IMG/VR virus record: IMGVR_UViG_2513237361_000014
Direction: 5' to 3' (one strand)
Source of the DNA: a virus
Lineage: Duplodnaviria; Heunggongvirae; Uroviricota; Caudoviricetes
Length of the DNA stretch: 19,370 nucleotides
Shown here: positions 1 to 18,572 of the stretch, one piece after another
Numbering within the stretch: the stretch's first letter is position 1
How the letters are laid out: each line of letters opens with the position of its first letter
The notes under the pieces: model-generated
The model's database searches: none
The model's input: only the letters and a program-made list of their open reading frames with translations
What the model was told of the DNA's origin: nothing
Position numbers and translations under genes: made by a program

Positions 1-300
1 ATGTCTCAGCCAGCGAAAGTTTTGCTGCTGTATGCCCATCCGGAATCTCAGGACTCGGTGGCAAACCGGGTACTGCTTAAACCGGCCACGCAGCTCAGCA
101 ATGTTACCGTGCACGACCTTTACGCGCACTATCCCGATTTTTTTATTGATATTCCCCGTGAGCAGGCATTACTGCGTGAGCACGAGGTGATTGTTTTTCA
201 GCATCCGCTTTATACCTACAGTTGCCCGGCGTTACTGAAAGAGTGGCTTGACCGGGTGTTAAGCCGTGGGTTTGCCAGCGGGCCCGTCAGCACCAGCTGA
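1..300 (+). pseudogene. kefG: KefG (K+ efflux ancillary protein) 5' fragment; KefG-like sequence ends near 285, then the frame runs 5 more codons to a stop
   Basis: Translation [94 protein letters not shown] matches my recollection of the KefG N-terminus. The tail PVSTS plus stop is unrelated, and only about 95 codons are present where roughly 184 are expected. Confidence 0.6.
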
Positions 301-524
301 TTGGTCAGTTTGCTGCGCTGAAGCAGCCACAGTCGGGAGCCGTAACGGTCATTCTGTACCGCAGGCCAGGTATCCCCCCACCATCCCATCGGGACGTCGG
401 CGTTGTCATCAGGCTCCGCCCGCCGCCAGGTAAACAGGGAAATCACCACGGCGCGGGTCAGCGGATCCAGCGGTGCGCTGGCGCAGGTGCGTTTACCGTT
501 CACCGTCAGCCACAGTTCCATCAT
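216..524 (-). pseudogene. Phage baseplate/tail protein, 3'-disrupted (Mu gp46-like by position); last ~23 codons read antisense through kefG
   Basis: ORF directly follows the two baseplate genes on the same strand with a 4-bp start/stop overlap at 521-524. The first ~80 codons are phage-like; the assignment is by gene order, not recognised sequence. Confidence 0.35.
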
Positions 525-1069
525 GCCTCCATCGCTTTATCAGGTTTGTCGGTGTTACTGCCCTGACCGTTCTCTCTGTGACGATGCCCGTTATAGGCAA
601 GCCGCATCGCTGACATGGTGGTGCCGCCGGAGTCGCACAGGTCTTTCACCTGTCCGGTCACTTCCAGATCCATTTCAAAACGTGCTTCAGGTGCATTGCG
701 AAACGTGATCGTTTTCCCTGCACCGTCCACCACGATCCCCTCCCGGGTCAGCGTCACAGACTGCCCCTGATCGTCATAGACAGCCACCTCACCCGTTTGC
801 AGCCCTTTCAGGCGGTAGCGCCGGTCCGACACCGTAACAACCACCGCATGAGAACGGTCGCCATCCGGAAACAACACCACCGCTTCCGCACCGCTGTTTG
901 CCCTTGCGGTAAAACCGTAGGGTTCAAGATATTCAACCCCGGCTTTGGGTTCACCGGCAATCAGGGACACATCCACGGTCTGACATTTCGTGGCGGCACT
1001 GATGCTTTTCACCACTGCCCGCCCAATCAGGCCGAGAAGTTGTCGCTGCATGGCTTCAATCGTCCTCAT
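521..1069 (-). CDS. Phage baseplate assembly/spike protein V-like (Mu gp45-like)
   Basis: 182-aa ORF whose C-terminal region (CDSGGTTMSAMRLAYNGHRH) resembles the spike-apex region of gpV-type proteins as I recall it. Its start overlaps the upstream gene by one base at 1069. Confidence 0.55.
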   Translation of the reverse strand: MRTIEAMQRQLLGLIGRAVVKSISAATKCQTVDVSLIAGEPKAGVEYLEPYGFTARANSGAEAVVLFPDGDRSHAVVVTVSDRRYRLKGLQTGEVAVYDDQGQSVTLTREGIVVDGAGKTITFRNAPEARFEMDLEVTGQVKDLCDSGGTTMSAMRLAYNGHRHRENGQGSNTDKPDKAMEA

Positions 1070-2091
1070 CAGAACGGGTCCTCCTGTACTCTGGCTTTTT
1101 TCTTTTTCCGCGCGCCGGGGGCTTCGGGTTCAGGCAGATAAGCGTCAGGCGGGCCGACACGGATTTCCGTCAGGGTGCCGTTCTGGTCCTGAGTAAACGT
1201 GACTTCCGAGACAAGCAGTTCGGTATTGTCGAAACCACAGACCGGATCGAAGACAATCACCCGCTGGTTGGGCTGCCACAGCGTACCGTTACCCTGTCGC
1301 CAGCCCTGCACCACATAGGTGGTTTCATCCGTCCGCGCCGCCCGTTTTCGGGCTTCAAAGTCAGCACGCGCAATACAGCCTGCCCCCGTGGCCTGCCCTG
1401 TCTGCCTGATATACATCGGACGGTAACGGGCAATAAATGCGTCCTCTGTGCGGGCCCGCAGCGCGGTGGTGGTGGCCTCACCGAAATCATCGTCGTTTCC
1501 GGCACGCTGCCCCGCCACCTGGTAAACAGAAAACCGCTCCCGGATACTCTTCTCCGTATCGCAGGAAAGGATGTTTTCCCCGAGTACCAGCGCAGTATGT
1601 GCCCGCGTTGAGCCAATACCACCAATCACCAGCCTGCCGTGCGGGTCGTCGTAAGCCAGTGCCTGCTGCTGACCGAGTATTTTGTTGATTACCTCAATCA
1701 CCGTTTCACCGTGATCGGGCTGGACGTCAGGAATAACACCCGACGGCGCACCGCTGTTCACCACCTCAATGCCGAAAGGCGCAGCAAGCGCCTGCGCAAT
1801 CTGCACCAGCGAGCGTCCGTTAAACTGTGTCGGTTCGGCTGCACAGTCAATCAGGTCAGCCGTCAGACTACGTCCGGCAATACCGGTGCTGACCGAACGG
1901 GCATCGTAACGAACGGGAGTCGCCTCCACCCAGCCGGTGCTCACCAGCTCATCACCAATCAGCACTTCCACTTTTGAACCGTTTTTAATGCGCGGCTGAA
2001 GCGTGGTGATACCCTCATCTCCCGGCCATTGGCGAGTGATCTCCACACTGAAATCCCGCGCCAGCCGTTCAATACCGGCACCGATGCGCAC
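1069..2091 (-). CDS. Phage baseplate hub / late-control-D-like protein (Mu gp44-like), probably 5'-truncated
   Basis: 340-aa ORF from a GTG at 2091. The frame stays open upstream to 2142 ([23 protein letters not shown]...) with no start codon before it runs antisense into the tuf start, so the native N-terminus appears to be missing. Confidence 0.5.
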   Translation of the reverse strand: MRIGAGIERLARDFSVEITRQWPGDEGITTLQPRIKNGSKVEVLIGDELVSTGWVEATPVRYDARSVSTGIAGRSLTADLIDCAAEPTQFNGRSLVQIAQALAAPFGIEVVNSGAPSGVIPDVQPDHGETVIEVINKILGQQQALAYDDPHGRLVIGGIGSTRAHTALVLGENILSCDTEKSIRERFSVYQVAGQRAGNDDDFGEATTTALRARTEDAFIARYRPMYIRQTGQATGAGCIARADFEARKRAARTDETTYVVQGWRQGNGTLWQPNQRVIVFDPVCGFDNTELLVSEVTFTQDQNGTLTEIRVGPPDAYLPEPEAPGARKKKKARVQEDPF

Positions 2092-9286: not shown

Positions 9287-9294
9287 ATGATAAA

Positions 9295-9322
9295 ACGAGT
9301 CCTTCGGGGCTCGTTTCTGTCT
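9295..9322 (+). terminator. Rho-independent terminator downstream of clpB
   Basis: 8-bp stem ACGAGTCC / GGGCTCGT with a TTCG tetraloop, followed by a T-rich tract (TTCTGTCT), 9 bp after the clpB stop. Confidence 0.65.
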
Positions 9323-9396
9323 ATAAGTTAGACGGAAAAGACCATGCTCGGGGTGTTTTGCCTGAAAATTGAGCGAACGATAAAGTTTTTATATTT

Positions 9397-10509
9397 TTCG
9401 TGCGTTGCGTAAACATGGTTGCTGATCTGTGGCACGCGCCTGCGCCGAAAAACGGTCAGGCCGTTGGCACCAACACCATTGGTTCTTCCGAGGCCTGTAT
9501 GCTCGGCGGGATGGCGATGAAATGGCGTTGGCGCAAGCGTATGGAAGCCGCAGGTAAACCGACCGATAAACCAAACCTGGTGTGCGGCCCGGTGCAAATC
9601 TGCTGGCATAAATTCGCCCGTTACTGGGATGTGGAGCTGCGCGAGATCCCTATGCGCCCCGGTCAGTTGTTTATGGATCCGAAACGGATGATTGAGGCCT
9701 GCGACGAAAACACCATCGGCGTGGTGCCGACTTTCGGCGTGACCTACACCGGTAACTATGAGTTCCCGCAACCGCTGCACGATGCGCTGGATAAATTCCA
9801 GGCCGACACCGGTATCGACATCGATATGCATATCGACGCTGCCAGCGGTGGCTTCCTGGCACCGTTCGTCGCCCCGGATATCGTCTGGGACTTCCGCCTG
9901 CCACGCGTGAAATCGATCAGTGCTTCTGGTCATAAATTTGGTCTGGCTCCGCTGGGCTGCGGCTGGGTTATCTGGCGTGACGAAGAAGCACTGCCGAAAG
10001 AGCTGGTGTTTAACGTTGACTATCTCGGCGGGCAAATCGGGACTTTTGCCATCAACTTCTCGCGTCCGGCGGGTCAGGTGATTGCCCAGTACTATGAATT
10101 CCTGCGCCTCGGTCGAGAAGGCTACACCAAAGTGCAGAACGCCTCTTATCAGGTCGCCACTTACCTGGCGGATGAAATCGCTAAACTGGGACCGTATGAG
10201 TTCATCTGCACCGGTCGCCCGGACGAAGGTATCCCGGCGGTTTGCTTCAAACTGAAAGACGGGGAAGATCCGGGATACACCCTGTATGACCTCTCTGAAC
10301 GTCTGCGCCTGCGCGGCTGGCAGGTTCCAGCCTTCACCCTTGGCGGTGAAGCCACTGACATCGTGGTGATGCGTATTATGTGTCGTCGTGGCTTCGAAAT
10401 GGACTTCGCTGAACTGTTGCTGGAAGACTACAAAGCCTCCCTGAAATACCTCAGCGATCACCCGAAACTGCAGGGTATTGCCCAGCAGAACAGTTTTAAA
10501 CATACCTGA
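9397..10509 (+). pseudogene. Glutamate decarboxylase (GadA/GadB-type) lacking the first ~95-100 codons and any promoter
   Basis: Translation ...[36 protein letters not shown]... through [19 protein letters not shown] (PLP-lysine region) to ...[11 protein letters not shown]. Similarity begins abruptly about 110 bp after the clpB terminator. I cannot tell gadA from gadB. Confidence 0.85.
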
Positions 10510-10556
10510 TAACCTTGTATTAATCTAATTTTTTATTTTTTTATCAATAGGTTACA

Positions 10557-13281: not shown

Positions 13282-13692
13282 TTCACCAAGACAATAAATG
13301 AAGCTGGGCATCTCGCAATCTATGACAAACATCACTTCAGTTCTTTCTCATCGGGTGATGAAAACGCACTTCAGTCTGAAAGGAGTATGAAAATGAGATC
13401 AACAAACAATCTATTTTATGACTCTGGGTAAAATGGATTGAGTAAGTGATATAGCTTACGAACATTCAAATCAATTAAACATCAGAAGAGATTTTATACT
13501 CAGGTATTTAATCTGGTCCTCTGTATATTTAAATAATGTGGAAAGTGAATTTTCACAGGAGACCTTATACAAAAAATATAAAATACAGCTATCCGCTGCC
13601 AAAGACACTATAAGCCTGGCAAAAAATATTACACGACATAAATGCTAATTGTTTATGCGGGCTTTGTATTACTTTCTGTATCCTACAAATGA

Positions 13693-14418
13693 GTGAAATT
13701 TATGAAAAAGGCTAAAATACTTTCTGGCGTATTATTACTCTGCTTTTCGTCGCCATTAATTTCTCAGGCTGCAACACTGGACGTCCGTGGTGGATATCGT
13801 AGTGGGAGCCATGCTTATGAAACTCGACTCAAAGTCAGTGAGGGATGGCAAAATGGATGGTGGGCAAGTCTTGAAAGTAATACCTGGAACACTATTCATG
13901 ATAATAAAAAAGAAAATGCCGCACTCAATGATGTTCAGGTCGAAGTTAATTACGCAATAAAACTTGATGATCAATGGACTGTGCGCCCGGGAATGTTAAC
14001 CCATTTTAGCAGCAACGGTACACGCTACGGACCTTACGTAAAACTGTCCTGGGATGCGACAAAAGATCTCAATTTTGGCATTCGCTATCGTTACGACTGG
14101 AAAGCCTACCGACAGCAAGACTTATCCGGCGATATGTCTCGTGATAACGTTCATCGTTGGGATGGATATGTCACTTACCATATTAATAGTGATTTCACCT
14201 TCGCCTGGCAAACAACGCTATACAGCAAACAAAACGATTATCGCTATGCAAACCATAAGAAATGGGCGACGGAAAATGCATTTGTTCTACAATACCATAT
14301 GACGCCAGATATTACGCCATACATAGAATATGACTACCTTGACCGTCAGGGTGTTTACAACGGTAGAGATAATTTATCTGAAAACAGTTATCGCATTGGT
14401 GTGTCATTTAAACTGTAG
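13693..14418 (+). CDS. nanC: N-acetylneuraminic acid outer-membrane channel NanC (KdgM family); start could be 13693 or the ATG at 13702
   Basis: Signal peptide (MKKAKILSGVLLLCFSSPLISQA), beta-barrel pattern, C-terminal ...YRIGVSFKL. Confidence 0.85.
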   Translation: MKFMKKAKILSGVLLLCFSSPLISQAATLDVRGGYRSGSHAYETRLKVSEGWQNGWWASLESNTWNTIHDNKKENAALNDVQVEVNYAIKLDDQWTVRPGMLTHFSSNGTRYGPYVKLSWDATKDLNFGIRYRYDWKAYRQQDLSGDMSRDNVHRWDGYVTYHINSDFTFAWQTTLYSKQNDYRYANHKKWATENAFVLQYHMTPDITPYIEYDYLDRQGVYNGRDNLSENSYRIGVSFKL

Positions 14419-14437
14419 TAGACAGGAGACAGTCACA

Positions 14438-15544
14438 ATGAATAAAAAAATAATGGCACTTGCTATCATAATGGCTTCATTTGCCGCAAACGCGTCTGTA
14501 TTACCAGAAACCCCTGTGCCTTTTAAAAGCGGTACTGGAGTGATTGATAACAACACTGTCTACATTGGTTTAGGTAGCGCAGGAGCAGCATGGTACAAGC
14601 TGGATACGCAAGCCAAAGATAAGAAATGGATAGCCCTGGCGGAATTCCCGGCTGGCCCGAGAGATCAAGCAACCTCTGCATTTATTGATGGTAATTTGTA
14701 TGTATTTGGCGGTGTTGGTAAAAACAGAGATGGGTTAACTCAGGTATTCAACGACGTACACAAATATAATCCCGAAACCAATACCTGGGTTAAATTGATG
14801 TCACACGCACCGATGGGCATGGCGGGTCATGTGACTTTTGTACACAACGGCAAGGCTTATGTTACTGGCGGTGTTAACCAGAATATCTTCAATGGCTATT
14901 TTGAAGATCTCAATGAGGCTGGAAAAGATTCAAAGACTATAGATAAAATCAACGCCAACTATTTTGACAAAAAAGCAGAAGATTATTTCTTCAATAAGTT
15001 TCTGTTGTCTTTTGAGCCCTCTACACAGCAATGGAGTTATGCTGGTGAATCTCCCTGGTACGGTACGGCTGGAGCGGCGGTAGCAAATAAAGGTGATAAA
15101 ACCTGGCTTATTAATGGCGAGGCAAAACCAGGATTGCGAACTGATGCTGTATTTGAGCTTGATTTCACCAGCAATAACATAAAATGGAATAAACTTTCTC
15201 CCGTCTCCTCACCGGATGGCGTAGCTGGCGGTTTTGCTGGTATTAGCAATGACTCTCTTATATTTGCCGGAGGAGCCGGATTTAAAGGTTCACGGGAAAA
15301 TTACCAGAACGGTAAGAACTATGCGCATGAAGGCCTGAAAAAATCGTATAGCGCTGATATTCATCTTTGGCATAACGGGAAATGGGAGAAATCTGGCGAA
15401 CTGTCGCAAGGTCGGGCCTACGGAGTATCATTACCCTGGAATAATAGCTTATTGATTATTGGCGGTGAAACTACGGGCGGCAAAGCTGTGGCGGATTCAG
15501 TGTTACTCTCTGTGAAAGATAATAAAGTGACTGTGCAAAACTAA
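14438..15544 (+). CDS. nanM: N-acetylneuraminate mutarotase NanM (YjhT), Kelch-repeat periplasmic protein
   Basis: ATG at 14438 preceded by AGGAGA. Signal peptide MNKKIMALAIIMASFAANA, with repeated GG/GGV Kelch-like motifs. The ORF track's 14330 start includes an untranslated leader. Confidence 0.88.
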   Translation: MNKKIMALAIIMASFAANASVLPETPVPFKSGTGVIDNNTVYIGLGSAGAAWYKLDTQAKDKKWIALAEFPAGPRDQATSAFIDGNLYVFGGVGKNRDGLTQVFNDVHKYNPETNTWVKLMSHAPMGMAGHVTFVHNGKAYVTGGVNQNIFNGYFEDLNEAGKDSKTIDKINANYFDKKAEDYFFNKFLLSFEPSTQQWSYAGESPWYGTAGAAVANKGDKTWLINGEAKPGLRTDAVFELDFTSNNIKWNKLSPVSSPDGVAGGFAGISNDSLIFAGGAGFKGSRENYQNGKNYAHEGLKKSYSADIHLWHNGKWEKSGELSQGRAYGVSLPWNNSLLIIGGETTGGKAVADSVLLSVKDNKVTVQN

Positions 15545-15549
15545 CTTTT

Positions 15550-15573
15550 CAGGGCTCCAGTAAAGGAGCCCTG
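15550..15573 (+). other. Perfect 9-bp stem-loop between nanM and nanS
   Basis: CAGGGCTCC - AGTAAA - GGAGCCCTG, 6 bp after the nanM stop. It has no strong U-tract, so it is more likely an RNA-stability or processing hairpin within the operon than a full terminator. Confidence 0.4.
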
Positions 15574-15608
15574 ATATCAATTCATCATTTTAATTACGCG
15601 ACATTTAT

Positions 15609-16595
15609 ATGAACGCAATAATATCGCCCGATTATTACTATGTTCTTACCGTTGCCGGTCAGTCTAATGCTATGGCGTATGGCGAAGGACTCCCGTTACC
15701 AGACAGTGAAGATGCGCCTCATCCCAGAATAAAACAACTGGCGAGATTCACTCAGACGCATCCCGGTGGCCCGTTATGTCAATTTAATGACATTATTCCA
15801 CTGACTCACTGCCCACACGATGTCCAGGATATGCAGGGTTATCACCATCCTCTGGCAACGAATCATCAAACACAGTACGGCACCGTTGGCCAGGCACTAC
15901 ATATTGCGCGGAAATTACTGCCCTTCATTCCTGATAATGCAGGCGTTCTTATCGTTCCCTGTTGCCGTGGTGGATCGGCTTTTACCACGGGCAGCGAAGG
16001 GACATATTCAGAACAGCACGGAGCCAGCCATGATTCATGTCGTTGGGGAGCGGATACTCCGCTGTATCAGGATTTAGTCAACAGAACACGAACGGCACTG
16101 TCAAAGAATCCGCAGAATAAATTCCTCGGCATATGCTGGATGCAGGGCGAATTTGACTTAATGACCAGTGACTACGCGTTACATCCTCAATACTTTAATC
16201 ATATGGTTGAAGCCTTTCGTGAGGATTTGAAACAGTATCGTTCTCAGCTTAATAATATTGCTGCCGCTCCGTGGTTTTGCGGCGATACCACCTGGTACTG
16301 GAAAGAAAATTACTCTCATGCGTATGATACGATTTATGGCAATTATAAAAATAATGCCTTAGCCAATATTATTTTCGTCGGCTTCCAGCAACAAGGTGAA
16401 AGAGGGCTGACGAACGAGCCAGATGAAGATCCGGACGATTTTAGCACGGGATATTACGGTTCAGCGTACCGAACACCAGAAAACTGGACGACGGTGCTAC
16501 GCAGCAGTCATTTCAGCTCAGCAGCCCGTCGGGGGATTATTTCTGACAAATTTGTTGAAGCTATTTTACGGTATTGGTGCGAAAGGTGGCTTTAA
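15609..16595 (+). CDS. nanS: N-acetyl-9-O-acetylneuraminate esterase NanS (YjhS)
   Basis: 328-aa ORF MNAIISPDYYYVLTVAGQSNAMAYGEG..., with an SGNH-like esterase N-terminus (GQSNA), following nanC-nanM as in the nanCMS operon. Confidence 0.85.
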   Translation: MNAIISPDYYYVLTVAGQSNAMAYGEGLPLPDSEDAPHPRIKQLARFTQTHPGGPLCQFNDIIPLTHCPHDVQDMQGYHHPLATNHQTQYGTVGQALHIARKLLPFIPDNAGVLIVPCCRGGSAFTTGSEGTYSEQHGASHDSCRWGADTPLYQDLVNRTRTALSKNPQNKFLGICWMQGEFDLMTSDYALHPQYFNHMVEAFREDLKQYRSQLNNIAAAPWFCGDTTWYWKENYSHAYDTIYGNYKNNALANIIFVGFQQQGERGLTNEPDEDPDDFSTGYYGSAYRTPENWTTVLRSSHFSSAARRGIISDKFVEAILRYWCERWL

Positions 16596-16596
16596 T

Positions 16597-16905
16597 ATGC
16601 GCCACGATGACACCACCGTCGCGCTGGAAGCGGCGCATATAAAATGGAAACAGCACGGCGGCCCTTGTGAAATCCCCAATGGTCTGGCGCTTTGCGCAAT
16701 TCACCATAAAGCCTTTGATAAAGGATCGATTGGCCTGGATGAAAATATGCGGGTACTGGTCTCGGATGCGGTAAACGGCGGAGGGATCGTTGAGAAACTA
16801 TTCTGGGATTTTGACGGGAAAACTATTGCGTTGCCGCAGGTGCGTAAAAATTACCCTTTTGAGGGGTTTGTGGAGTGGCATCGGAAAGAGGTTTTTAGGG
16901 GGTGA
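16597..16905 (+). pseudogene. HNH-nuclease-family C-terminal fragment (~103 codons)
   Basis: MRHDDTTVALEAAHIKWKQHGGPCEIPNGLALCAIHHKAFDKGSIGLDENMRVLV carries an H-N-H core (AAHIKW ... NGLALCAIHH). The ATG sits 1 bp after the nanS stop with no room for the N-terminal domain expected of full-length proteins. The ORF track's 16423 start is an out-of-frame overlap with nanS. Confidence 0.45.
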
Positions 16906-16912
16906 GGTTTGC

Positions 16913-16956
16913 TGTAAATAGACCCGTTTTAGTTCCATGCATTTTTTGAGCTCCCG
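16913..16956. repeat. Left inverted repeat (38 bp perfect, 44 bp with one mismatch)
   Basis: TGTAAATAGACCCGTTTTAGTTCCATGCATTTTTTGAG at 16913-16950 is the exact reverse complement of 18137-18174. The match extends to 16956 / 18131 with one mismatch. Confidence 0.9.
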
Positions 16957-17264
16957 ACACTGCTAAATCCGCGCTGGGGCAAGTTGGGTTTAGGTTGCGC
17001 CAGAAGATGGCAACTCATCATGGTATGCAGTTCGTTCCATGGCTGAGAGTCACACTGGAGCAAGAGTTTGTACATAACAATCCGGCCAAAGTTAATGATG
17101 ATAATTTCAATAACGATATTGCCGGAACAAGAGGAAGTTGCCAGGCTGGCATCAGCGCGGCTACCACGCCGCACACACATATTTACGCCAGCATAAATTA
17201 TGAGAAAGGTGATGGGGTGGAATCGCCATGGACTGGAAACATTGGCTTTAATTATAGTTTCTAA
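16950..17264 (+). pseudogene. Outer-membrane beta-barrel protein C-terminal fragment (autotransporter- or porin-type)
   Basis: Frame opens right at the inner edge of the left repeat and ends ...YASINYEKGDGVESPWTGNIGFNYSF, with a C-terminal aromatic residue and alternating hydrophobic pattern typical of barrel C-termini. There is no signal peptide or N-terminal domain. Confidence 0.4.
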
Positions 17265-17370
17265 TATGGCATTTCATGTTTATATCAATTCCTATATATC
17301 CATTGCTTTTACAATCAAATGAGAACACCATTCATTATCTTAACAATAGAGATGAAGTCAGGAGACAGCC

Positions 17371-17964
17371 ATGTCATTGCTAGAGTCATTTGGGAAAGTA
17401 TTAATTATATTGCTTGAAGCATTTTTAGGGAAACGCAAAGGTCAGGAGGAAGCACATATTAATTTTTTAAATGAATATACGAAAGAAAACTGCAACCATC
17501 GTTTGGTAGAATATTGGTTTTGTCAGCTCACAGGATGGCGTTACGCAAAGTACCAGGATATTGTTTTTATAATGATCTCATCCGACCCATCAAAAATATT
17601 GTATATGGCTAAAGGCATTAATTACATTGCCCGTACAGTGGAATTTATTGATAGTGGAGAATGCAAACTATCCGATAGATATAAAGAAACGAAAAAGAAT
17701 ACATTCCTCTTTTTGTTCATATCATTCATGATCATTTTCTTCATATTAATTGCCTGGATGGTATCCTCTGTAATATCTCTGATAACACATCATCATGATG
17801 TCATATTAATGGCTATAAATATTTCATCGATAATAGCAGGTGCGATTTTTATCATGTGCTTTGCATTCTTCATTCATGCAATAACAATGGAGTTTTTTGC
17901 CTTTGAAAAGGCAGAGCATTTTGTAAAATCTTACAATGCAGAAAGAGCATCATCAGGTCGTTAA
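17371..17964 (+). CDS. Hypothetical membrane protein (197 aa), unrecognised
   Basis: ATG with AGGAGA 7 bp upstream. AT-rich codon usage unlike the flanking genes. Hydrophobic N-terminus, a ~100-aa hydrophilic region, then two strong transmembrane helices (FLFLFISFMIIFFILIAWMVSSVISLI and VILMAINISSIIAGAIFIMCFAFFIHAI). Confidence 0.55.
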   Translation: MSLLESFGKVLIILLEAFLGKRKGQEEAHINFLNEYTKENCNHRLVEYWFCQLTGWRYAKYQDIVFIMISSDPSKILYMAKGINYIARTVEFIDSGECKLSDRYKETKKNTFLFLFISFMIIFFILIAWMVSSVISLITHHHDVILMAINISSIIAGAIFIMCFAFFIHAITMEFFAFEKAEHFVKSYNAERASSGR

Positions 17965-18130
17965 TGTTTGCCTCTATATTAATGCTACTGCTATCGCCAC
18001 CTATTAATATCTGCCAATCAATAGGCAAAAAGGTGATACCAGTGGCATCAAAATTTCAGCCAAACAATCTTTGTAAGACGAAGATCTCTGATTTAGCACT
18101 GCACTGATTTTGGGCCAGGGTCAATTTGGC

Positions 18131-18174
18131 CGGGATCTCAAAAAATGCATGGAACTAAAACGGGTCTATTTACA
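18131..18174. repeat. Right inverted repeat, partner of 16913-16956
   Basis: Reverse complement of 18137-18174 equals 16913-16950 exactly. Confidence 0.9.
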
Positions 18175-18437: not shown

Positions 18438-18572
18438 ATGTCATTACAGCAGGCTTTTGAGGTCTGCCAGAATAATAAAGCGGCATGGCTTCAGCGCAAA
18501 AATGAACTAGCGGCAGCCGAACAGGAATATCTGCGGCTTCTGTCCGGGGAAGGCAGGAATGTCAGCCGGCTT
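18438..18572 (+). pseudogene. psu: Polarity suppression protein Psu (P4-type) N-terminal ~45 codons; after ~18572 the frame runs into unrelated sequence
   Basis: MSLQQAFEVCQNNKAAWLQRKNELAAAEQEYLRLLSGEGRNVSRL matches the Psu N-terminus from memory. Similarity stops exactly where the convergent minus-strand ORF ends (18571). Confidence 0.5.

What the first reader, a model, noticed from the sequence alone, without database searches (positions are those of the whole stretch)
16597..16905. Orphan HNH-nuclease C-terminal domain immediately after nanS
A 103-codon ORF with an HNH core starts 1 bp after the nanS stop. HNH-family nucleases normally carry a longer N-terminal region, so this is either a remnant of a restriction or defence nuclease, or a mini-nuclease. 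It directly precedes the inverted-repeat-bounded segment, which is consistent with a degraded mobile or defence island at the end of the nan operon.
Basis: partly seen in the sequence, partly recalled or inferred. Interest (0 to 1): 0.4.

Follow-up and report, generated by a model that had tools for sequence, protein, structure and literature searches.

The report
Deletion remnant of EcoWI-like restriction gene
The small ORF after nanS is the last third of a phosphorothioate-dependent restriction enzyme gene whose front two thirds were lost in a 758-bp deletion, so it is an ordinary gene remnant and not a new mini-nuclease.

Summary
The ORF is real. It runs 16597-16905, has 102 codons plus a stop, and its ATG lies one base after the nanS stop. 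It carries an HNH core (Pfam HNH_2, E 1.4e-8). It matches positions 184-284 of the 284-position NCBIfam model for the phosphorothioated-DNA-binding restriction endonuclease, the SBD-HNH architecture described for EcoWI. It is 98-99% identical in protein to residues 189-290 of the 290-aa E. coli gene that sits downstream of nanS.

Relative to E. coli, 758 bp are missing, from the nanS stop codon to codon 188 of the restriction gene. The two ends are joined at a 3-nt exact match (GTG) inside an 8-of-10 imperfect repeat. The deletion removed the sulfur-binding domain, the linker and the CxxC half of the structural zinc site. It left the H-N-H triad and the CxxH half-site.

The same junction occurs, base for base, in three independent assemblies, so it is not an assembly truncation. 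It occurs in none of 5,426 complete E. coli genomes.

No family of stand-alone 102-aa proteins was found. Three other 102-aa ORF calls that were traced came from independently broken full-length genes, read from the same conserved internal Met.

Verdict: pseudogene remnant, already-known kind, low interest. Residual expression is possible but unlikely to give an active nuclease.

The parts
15609..16595 (+). nanS (sialate O-acetylesterase), 328 aa. Its last two codons (Trp-Leu) and its TAA stop are read from restriction-gene DNA in another frame, because the deletion removed the native TGA stop.
   Evidence: Pfam SASA hit. About 90.6% nucleotide identity to E. coli nanS, which is 326 aa. Junction alignment.
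16579..16588 (+). Deletion junction. The 10-mer GCGAAAGGTG aligns both to the nanS end (10 of 10) and to GCGATATGTG inside the restriction gene (8 of 10). The crossover lies in the shared GTG at 16586-16588.
   Evidence: Two BLAST pieces overlap by 10 nt: reference 1-189 and 948-1277 of L002:3001-4400. Alignment.
16583..16589 (+). Shine-Dalgarno-like AAGGTGG, brought to within 7-8 nt of the internal ATG by the deletion.
   Evidence: Duplex with the 16S 3' end is -7.2 kcal/mol, against -1.5 for the same position in the intact gene. Not evidence of expression.
16597..16905 (+). Remnant ORF of 102 aa, equal to residues 189-290 of the EcoWI-like phosphorothioate-dependent restriction endonuclease. 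It keeps His14, Asn28 and His37 (the HNH triad) and Cys33-x-x-His36 (half of the zinc site). It lacks the sulfur-binding domain, the linker and the CxxC pair (Cys182, Cys185 in full-length numbering).
   Evidence: Residue roles taken from the TagI structure paper PMC6212794.
16913..16956 (.). Left solo end of an IS3-family element. It starts 7 nt after the remnant's stop codon, where similarity to E. coli ends.
   Evidence: Inverted repeat I1. 97.8% match to the outermost 45 nt of IS3-family elements. Homology to E. coli stops at window 16908.
16995..17264 (+). 3' fragment of an autotransporter beta-barrel gene. It is cargo of the IS-end-bounded segment and not part of the nuclease.
   Evidence: Pfam Autotransporter, profile positions 187-254 of 255. 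92% match to E. coli MS 16-3, in an ICE context.
17371..17964 (+). 197-aa hypothetical ORF that travels with the autotransporter fragment.
   Evidence: No Pfam hit. The same gene follows the autotransporter gene in E. coli MS 16-3.
18131..18174 (.). Right solo end of the IS3-family element, inverted relative to the left one.

Best explanation
The ORF is a pseudogene remnant. The ancestor of this Escherichia lineage had the arrangement seen in many E. coli. The window is identical to Escherichia sp. TW09308, GCA_000208565.2. In that arrangement nanS is followed by a short spacer and then a 290-aa type IV restriction enzyme. The enzyme has an N-terminal sulfur-binding domain that recognises phosphorothioated DNA and a C-terminal HNH nuclease, which is the architecture described for EcoWI.

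An illegitimate, microhomology-mediated recombination joined the end of nanS to codon 188 of that gene and deleted 758 bp. This step is inferred from the junction sequence. What is left starts at a conserved internal methionine and therefore reads as a clean 102-codon ORF.

The remnant has no modification sensor and only half of its structural zinc site. It cannot act as a phosphorothioate-dependent restriction enzyme, and it is most likely inactive as a nuclease. It may still be transcribed with nanCMS and translated, but no function is expected. These last points are inferred, not shown.
For: 1. Origin. It matches model positions 184-284 of 284 of NF045808. It is 98-99% identical to residues 189-290 of the E. 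coli protein. That gene is full length directly downstream of nanS in E. coli XJ6.1, E24377A and IHE3034.

2. Deletion. Similarity to E. coli runs to the last base before the nanS stop and resumes at reference position 948. The two stretches share a 10-nt overlap.

3. Real, not an artefact. The junction and the whole ORF are 100% identical in GCA_000208565.2, GCA_023275955.1 and the Logan assembly of SRR29904084.

4. Losses.
- Pfam HNH_2 spans residues 182-236 in the intact protein but starts at profile position 8 in the remnant.
- The lost Cys182-x-x-Cys185 corresponds, by my extrapolation of the alignment offset (not read from a printed alignment), to TagI Cys210/Cys213. Single alanine replacements of those residues drastically reduce TagI activity (PMC6212794).
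- The EcoWI paper describes the zinc finger as CxxC plus CxxH (PMC7461809).

5. No stand-alone family.
- The homologue search returned only pieces of 58-179 aa with heterogeneous ends.
- Other 102-aa calls are a 170-aa SBD ORF followed by a 102-aa ORF that together span 873 nt, or a gene with an internal 428-bp deletion.
- The Met is conserved within the intact genes.
- The full-length form is the rule: most of the 56 species-representative loci returned match the query over residues 1-289/290, and a few are themselves partial.

6. The AlphaFold2 model of the fragment alone is poor. Mean pLDDT is 56.8, and residues 1-32, which include the catalytic His, score below 50.

7. PGAP annotates a comparable 273-bp piece in E. 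coli GD33 as an incomplete HNH endonuclease pseudogene.
Against: - The ORF is intact, with no frameshift or stop.
- The junction places an SD-like AAGGTGG (-7.2 kcal/mol) 7-8 nt before the ATG, and the ATG sits one base after the nanS stop. Coupled translation is therefore plausible.
- No terminator-like site was found between nanS and the ORF.
- The HNH triad is complete.
- An SBD-truncated SprMcrA is reported to be a non-specific nickase (PMC7461809), so a sensor-less HNH can be active. That protein, however, kept its whole HNH domain.
- Differences from E. coli are mostly synonymous: 5 synonymous and 1 non-synonymous. Most of this divergence may predate the deletion.
- The three carriers are identical over at least 5.5 kb. 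The absence of decay therefore says nothing about selection.
Confidence: 0.9

Rival explanations
1. The ORF encodes a functional stand-alone mini-HNH nuclease or nickase. It would be co-transcribed with nanCMS and translated by coupling to nanS, and it would act without a modification sensor.
For: The ORF is intact. There is an SD-like sequence at the right distance, and the ATG is one base after the nanS stop. No terminator-like site lies in between. His14, Asn28 and His37 are present. SBD-truncated SprMcrA is a non-specific nickase (PMC7461809).
Against: - Two of the four ligands of the structural zinc are deleted. In TagI, loss of a single one drastically lowers activity.
- The fold prediction for the fragment is poor.
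- No conserved family of proteins of this size and start exists. Similar ORFs elsewhere are by-products of independent gene disruptions.
- EcoWI, ScoMcrA and SprMcrA work as dimers of whole proteins (PMC7461809).
- A constitutive non-specific nuclease would be toxic.
Confidence: 0.05
2. The truncation is an assembly or scaffolding artefact, and the genome really holds the full-length gene.
For: The source assembly has suspicious synteny elsewhere in the window: clpB, then a truncated gadB-like gene, then fimE. The full-length gene exists at this locus in E. coli.
Against: The same junction occurs base for base in two NCBI isolate assemblies and in an independent Logan assembly of a sequencing run. 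The junction lies inside unique sequence and shows a microhomology signature.
Confidence: 0.01
3. No deletion occurred in place. Instead, the 3' part of an E. coli restriction gene arrived with incoming DNA. It was joined to the resident nanS by homology-facilitated illegitimate recombination, so the lineage never had a complete copy.
For: The remnant is much closer to E. coli than its flanks are. dS is 0.08-0.16, against 0.32 for nanS and 0.41-0.44 for nanM. There are 8 mismatches in 330 bp where about 27 are expected (binomial P 1.2e-5). The joint uses only 3 exact bases within an 8-of-10 repeat.
Against: No relative with the recipient arrangement could be found to tell the two orders of events apart. 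The right-hand side shows no homologous anchor; IS3-family ends follow instead. This rival changes the history, not what the ORF is.
Confidence: 0.2

Closest known systems
EcoWI and the NCBIfam NF045808 family (SBD-HNH phosphorothioate-dependent restriction endonucleases; the authors of PMC7461809 propose filing them as type IIM)
   Same: The remnant is the C-terminal 102 residues of a member. It is 98-99% identical to the E. coli protein at this locus and aligns to the model end to end over positions 184-284. The HNH triad and the CxxH motif are present.
   Different: - It lacks the sulfur-binding domain (the KPxxLL...PF...W region), the linker and the CxxC motif.
- Its score of 155.9 bits is below the family cutoff of 180.
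- I could not confirm that the E. coli protein at this locus is EcoWI itself. The paper gives no accession in the text held. The size fits: a predicted 33.4 kDa against 290 aa.
SprMcrA-S, the SBD-truncated form of SprMcrA
   Same: It is an HNH module of the same enzyme class that lacks a working sulfur-binding domain. It is reported to be a non-specific nicking enzyme (PMC7461809).
   Different: SprMcrA-S lacks only 87 N-terminal residues and keeps the complete HNH domain with its zinc site. The window ORF is cut inside the HNH domain.
TagI (SRA-HNH, PDB 6ghs)
   Same: It is the closest solved HNH domain by sequence (E 0.005 for the fragment; E 8e-6 for the full-length protein). It allows residue-by-residue assignment of the catalytic and zinc ligands.
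   Different: It has a different sensor domain (SRA, for modified cytosine). It uses CxxD instead of CxxH in the second half-site.
PGAP-annotated 'HNH endonuclease, incomplete, missing N-terminus' pseudogenes in E. coli, such as the one in GD33
   Same: These are independent N-terminally truncated pieces of the same gene in the leuX/nan/fim island region.
   Different: They have different breakpoints and neighbours. In GD33 the piece sits between an integrase and IS903B.

Membership tests
SBD-HNH phosphorothioate-dependent restriction endonuclease (EcoWI-like, NCBIfam NF045808) | N-terminal DNA sulfur-binding domain | tested here: not met
   The remnant starts at residue 189 of 290. In the intact E. 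coli protein the SBD matches ScoMcrA structures over residues 5-142. All of that region is deleted here.
SBD-HNH phosphorothioate-dependent restriction endonuclease (EcoWI-like, NCBIfam NF045808) | Whole-protein score at or above the curated cutoff | tested here: not met
   155.9 bits against a cutoff of 180. Only model positions 184-284 of 284 are matched.
SBD-HNH phosphorothioate-dependent restriction endonuclease (EcoWI-like, NCBIfam NF045808) | Descent from a family member (orthology of the retained part) | tested here: met
   98-99% amino-acid identity and 96-98% nucleotide identity to the 3' end of the E. coli gene at the syntenic position downstream of nanS.
SBD-HNH phosphorothioate-dependent restriction endonuclease (EcoWI-like, NCBIfam NF045808) | Cleavage stimulated by phosphorothioate-modified DNA | not testable with these tools
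   This needs an enzyme assay. Without the sensor domain it is not expected.
HNH (beta-beta-alpha-Me) nuclease domain, Pfam HNH_2 PF13391 | Profile match above the gathering score | tested here: met
   34.9 bits against 21, E 1.4e-8. The match covers profile positions 8-66 of 66 only. The intact protein matches positions 1-66.
HNH (beta-beta-alpha-Me) nuclease domain, Pfam HNH_2 PF13391 | His-Asn-His catalytic triad | tested here: met
   His14, Asn28 and His37 align with TagI His229, Asn245 and His254 (residue roles from PMC6212794). His14 and His37 are invariant and Asn28 is at least 90% conserved among 22 relatives.
HNH (beta-beta-alpha-Me) nuclease domain, Pfam HNH_2 PF13391 | Complete structural zinc site (CxxC plus CxxH/C/D) | tested here: not met
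   Cys33-x-x-His36 is present. The CxxC pair (Cys182, Cys185 of the intact protein) lies upstream of the deletion junction and is absent.
HNH (beta-beta-alpha-Me) nuclease domain, Pfam HNH_2 PF13391 | Confidently predicted beta-beta-alpha fold for the fragment on its own | tested here: inconclusive
   AlphaFold2 with a 22-sequence alignment gave mean pLDDT 56.8, with residues 1-32 below 50 and modelled as helix. The alignment is shallow and the model ignores metal ions, so I ran no fold search on it.

The most novel reading that the evidence does not exclude
The deletion turned a restriction gene into a sensor-less HNH stub that is expressed. The stub would now be the last cistron of the sialic-acid-inducible nanCMS operon, with a fortuitous ribosome-binding site and stop-start coupling to nanS. 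It would retain some activity, such as weak non-specific nicking, or interference with incoming full-length EcoWI-like enzymes through the HNH dimer interface.
Probability: 0.04. Interest if true: 0.45.

Novelty: already known. Interest (0 to 1): 0.12.

Why it matters
It matters little in itself. This is a clean, well-delimited example of how a defence gene dies by a short microhomology deletion and leaves an ORF that gene finders call as a small 'HNH endonuclease'. There are two practical lessons.

- Short HNH_2-only ORFs in Enterobacterales should be checked against the 290-aa SBD-HNH family before being counted as mini-nucleases or as defence genes.
- This restriction gene is broken repeatedly and independently in Escherichia. 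That would fit a conflict with phosphorothioate (dnd or ssp) modification systems, an idea that can be tested on whole genomes.

Tried and rejected
- **Exact-match scans for the junction.** I scanned the GTDB species-representative genomes for the junction and the JGI metagenomes for the lineage-specific nanS end. Both returned nothing, so I found no relative with the pre-deletion state.
- **Protein search with the window's NanS.** I hoped it would find close relatives with a different downstream gene. At 90% clustering it falls into the large E. coli NanS cluster, which was not informative.
- **Search for a stand-alone protein family** with the 102-aa query. It returned only fragments of varied length. 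Three 102-aa representatives were traced to contigs. Two proved to be a split gene and an internal deletion; the third has no gene called upstream.
- **Confirming that the E. coli gene is EcoWI itself.** I searched the main text and supplement of PMC7461809. No accession or sequence is held there.
- **Structure prediction of the fragment**. Confidence was too low to justify a fold search, so I ran none.
- **The 160-aa ORF from 16423.** Rejected: its N-terminal 58 residues overlap nanS out of frame and add no domain.
- **Selection analysis among carriers.** Rejected as uninformative, because the three carriers are identical over the region.

Full report
**Observation**

The nanS stop TAA occupies 16593-16595. 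One base follows, and then ATG at 16597 opens a frame that closes with TGA at 16903-16905. That gives 102 sense codons.

- Pfam HNH_2 matches with E 1.4e-8 and 34.9 bits against a cutoff of 21, but only over profile positions 8-66 of 66.
- NCBIfam gives one hit, NF045808 'phosphorothioated DNA-binding restriction endonuclease'. It has E 1.2e-45 and 155.9 bits, below the cutoff of 180, and aligns end to end with model positions 184-284 of 284.

The ORF therefore looks like the last third of a known 284-290-aa protein.

**What sits here in relatives**

About 39% of 5,426 complete E. coli genomes contain DNA 90-98% identical to the ORF. Nearly all of these matches lie under a gene annotated as this restriction endonuclease.

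In strains XJ6.1, E24377A and IHE3034 the order downstream of nanS is as follows:
- a 105-bp remnant of a different HNH gene on the opposite strand, translated;
- then an intact 873-bp gene encoding 290 aa.

The window ORF is 98-99% identical in protein to residues 189-290 of that gene. It begins at the gene's internal Met189.

In the intact protein, residues 5-142 match the sulfur-binding domain of ScoMcrA structures, and residues 170-250 match the HNH domain of TagI. Pfam HNH_2 spans residues 182-236.

The literature describes this architecture, a sulfur-binding domain plus linker plus HNH, for EcoWI. EcoWI is a 33.4-kDa dimeric enzyme that cuts next to GpsAAC/GpsTTC. Its HNH domain is described with a CxxC plus CxxH zinc finger (PMC7461809; PMC9521924). 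I could not verify that the E. coli gene at this locus is EcoWI itself.

**The lesion**

Aligned to E. coli XJ6.1, the window follows nanS up to the base before its TGA stop. It then jumps 758 bp to codon 188 of the restriction gene.

- The two BLAST pieces overlap by 10 nt at window 16579-16588 (GCGAAAGGTG).
- This 10-mer is identical to the nanS end and matches GCGATATGTG in the restriction gene at 8 of 10 positions.
- The base pattern places the crossover in the shared GTG at 16586-16588.

This is the signature of illegitimate recombination at a microhomology.

As a by-product, nanS lost its own stop and now reads two extra codons (Trp-Leu) and a TAA from restriction-gene DNA. It is 328 aa instead of 326 aa.

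The first ATG after the joint is the conserved Met189 codon, which is why a tidy ORF results.

**What was lost and what was kept**

*Lost:*
- the whole sulfur-binding domain;
- the linker;
- Cys182-x-x-Cys185.

*Kept (full-length numbering in brackets):*
- His14 (202), Asn28 (216) and His37 (225). These align with TagI His229, Asn245 and His254, which are the water-activating histidine, the structural asparagine and the metal-binding histidine.
- Cys33-x-x-His36, which aligns with the TagI CxxD half of the structural zinc site (PMC6212794).

In TagI, replacing either cysteine of the CxxC pair by alanine drastically reduces activity. The remnant lacks both.

An AlphaFold2 model of the fragment with 22 relatives is poor. 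Mean pLDDT is 56.8, and residues 1-32 score below 50. This is weak evidence, because the alignment is shallow and metal ions are ignored.

**Not an artefact**

The window is identical to Escherichia sp. TW09308 (GCA_000208565.2) over the 6.4 kb compared.

The same nanS allele, junction and ORF are present base for base in GCA_023275955.1 and in an independent assembly of run SRR29904084. GCA_023275955.1 differs downstream from 18571 onward, where it carries a PvuII-like restriction-modification system instead of P4-like remnants. The deletion is therefore older than that difference.

No complete E. coli genome has the junction (0 of 5,426). Neither do the GTDB species representatives.

**Mini-nuclease tested**

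A database-wide search with the 102-aa query returned only pieces of 58-179 aa with ragged ends. Several are also exactly 102 aa, at 68-97% identity, so I traced three of them.

- One family is a 170-aa SBD ORF followed, after a short gap, by the 102-aa ORF. Together they span 873 nt, so this is a split full-length gene.
- One lies after an internal 428-bp deletion of the gene, downstream of an E. coli nanS.
- One lies about 700 nt downstream of the nearest called gene, with no gene called in between.

A complete E. coli genome, GD33, has a 273-bp piece between an island integrase and IS903B. PGAP marks it as an incomplete pseudogene.

Met189 is conserved in most close relatives within intact genes, so gene finders fall back on it whenever the upstream part is broken.

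Among 56 species-representative loci in Citrobacter, Klebsiella, Enterobacter, Serratia, Xenorhabdus, Gilliamella and others, most match the query over residues 1-289/290; a few are partial.

I find no evidence for a conserved stand-alone form.

**Could it still be made?**

Possibly.

- The deletion puts the nanS-derived AAGGTGG 7-8 nt before the ATG. The duplex with the 16S 3' end is -7.2 kcal/mol, against -1.5 in the intact gene.
- The ATG is one base after the nanS stop.
- No terminator-like site separates the two.

An SBD-truncated SprMcrA is a non-specific nickase, but it retains its whole HNH domain. I give the active mini-nuclease reading about 5%.

**History**

The remnant is much closer to E. 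coli than its neighbours are.

| Region | dS against E. coli |
|---|---|
| Remnant | 0.08-0.16 |
| nanS | 0.32 |
| nanM | 0.41-0.44 |

The remnant shows 8 mismatches in 330 bp where about 27 are expected (binomial P 1.2e-5). The restriction gene, or this piece of it, was therefore exchanged with E. coli recently.

Against XJ6.1 there are five synonymous changes and one non-synonymous change. That pattern is what one expects if most of the divergence predates the loss of function. It carries no information about present selection, because all carriers are identical.

I could not resolve whether a full-length copy was first acquired and then deleted, or whether a fragment was joined directly to nanS during import. 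No relative with the earlier state was found.

**Surroundings**

Seven bases after the remnant's stop, similarity to E. coli ends. A 44-nt arm begins there (16913-16956), and its inverted partner lies at 18131-18174.

Both arms match the outermost 45 nt of IS3-family elements. There is no transposase between them.

The enclosed 1.17 kb holds the 3' end of an autotransporter gene and a 197-aa ORF. It is 92% identical to a stretch of an integrative conjugative element in E. coli MS 16-3. Shuffled pieces of a P4-like satellite follow.

**Verdict**

This is a real sequence feature of an ordinary and already-known kind: the 3' remnant of an EcoWI-like phosphorothioate-dependent restriction gene, left by a 758-bp microhomology deletion. 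It is not a member of the functional family, because the sensor domain and half of the zinc site are missing. It is not a new class of small nuclease.

Noticed in passing
window 16913-16956 and 18131-18174, with the cargo at 16957-18130: Two inverted solo ends of an IS3-family element have no transposase between them. They enclose an autotransporter 3' fragment and a 197-aa ORF that are 92% identical to ICE-borne DNA of E. coli MS 16-3. This could be a MITE-like or collapsed composite structure.
   Followed up: partly
window about 9287-10556: A 5'-truncated gadB-like gene (94% identical to E. coli gadB) lies between clpB and fimE. These loci are far apart in E. coli K-12 (map positions from my own knowledge, not checked here). 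GCA_023275955.1 has a fimbrial-subunit gene (Pfam Fimbrial, fimA-like) beside fimE instead. This is either a true rearrangement or a scaffold join at a repeated gene in GCA_000208565.2.
   Followed up: partly
window 216-2091: Mu-like phage baseplate genes (gp46, gp45, gp44/GpP) sit next to bamD, rluD, yfiH and clpB. A prophage end lies at the start of the window.
   Followed up: no
L008, L012-L016 and L074 (E. coli GD33); L001 and L004 (nanS pseudogenes); L017 (Escherichia sp. E1V33): The nanS/EcoWI-like interval is damaged repeatedly and independently. The restriction gene shows an internal 428-bp deletion, a split gene and a 273-bp remnant. nanS is a pseudogene in E24377A and IHE3034, and it is mostly deleted in E1V33. 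This may reflect conflict with phosphorothioate-modification systems, which I did not test.
   Followed up: partly
window 16579-16908, compared with 13401-16588: The remnant carries an E. coli-type allele (dS 0.08-0.16) inside a background that is about 9% diverged from E. coli (dS 0.32-0.44). This indicates recent exchange of this defence gene between Escherichia lineages.
   Followed up: yes
L002 3198-3302 (- strand); the same feature occurs in L001 and L004: E. coli keeps a second, unrelated 35-codon HNH remnant (ending ...CPNCHAMLHRRK...) on the opposite strand between nanS and the full-length restriction gene. More than one HNH gene has decayed at this spot.
   Followed up: partly
L006 9604-11430 (GCA_023275955.1): The sister assembly shares the deletion. 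Beyond window position 18571, however, it carries a PvuII-like restriction-modification system (endonuclease, C protein and N4/N6 methyltransferase) in place of the P4-like remnants.
   Followed up: no
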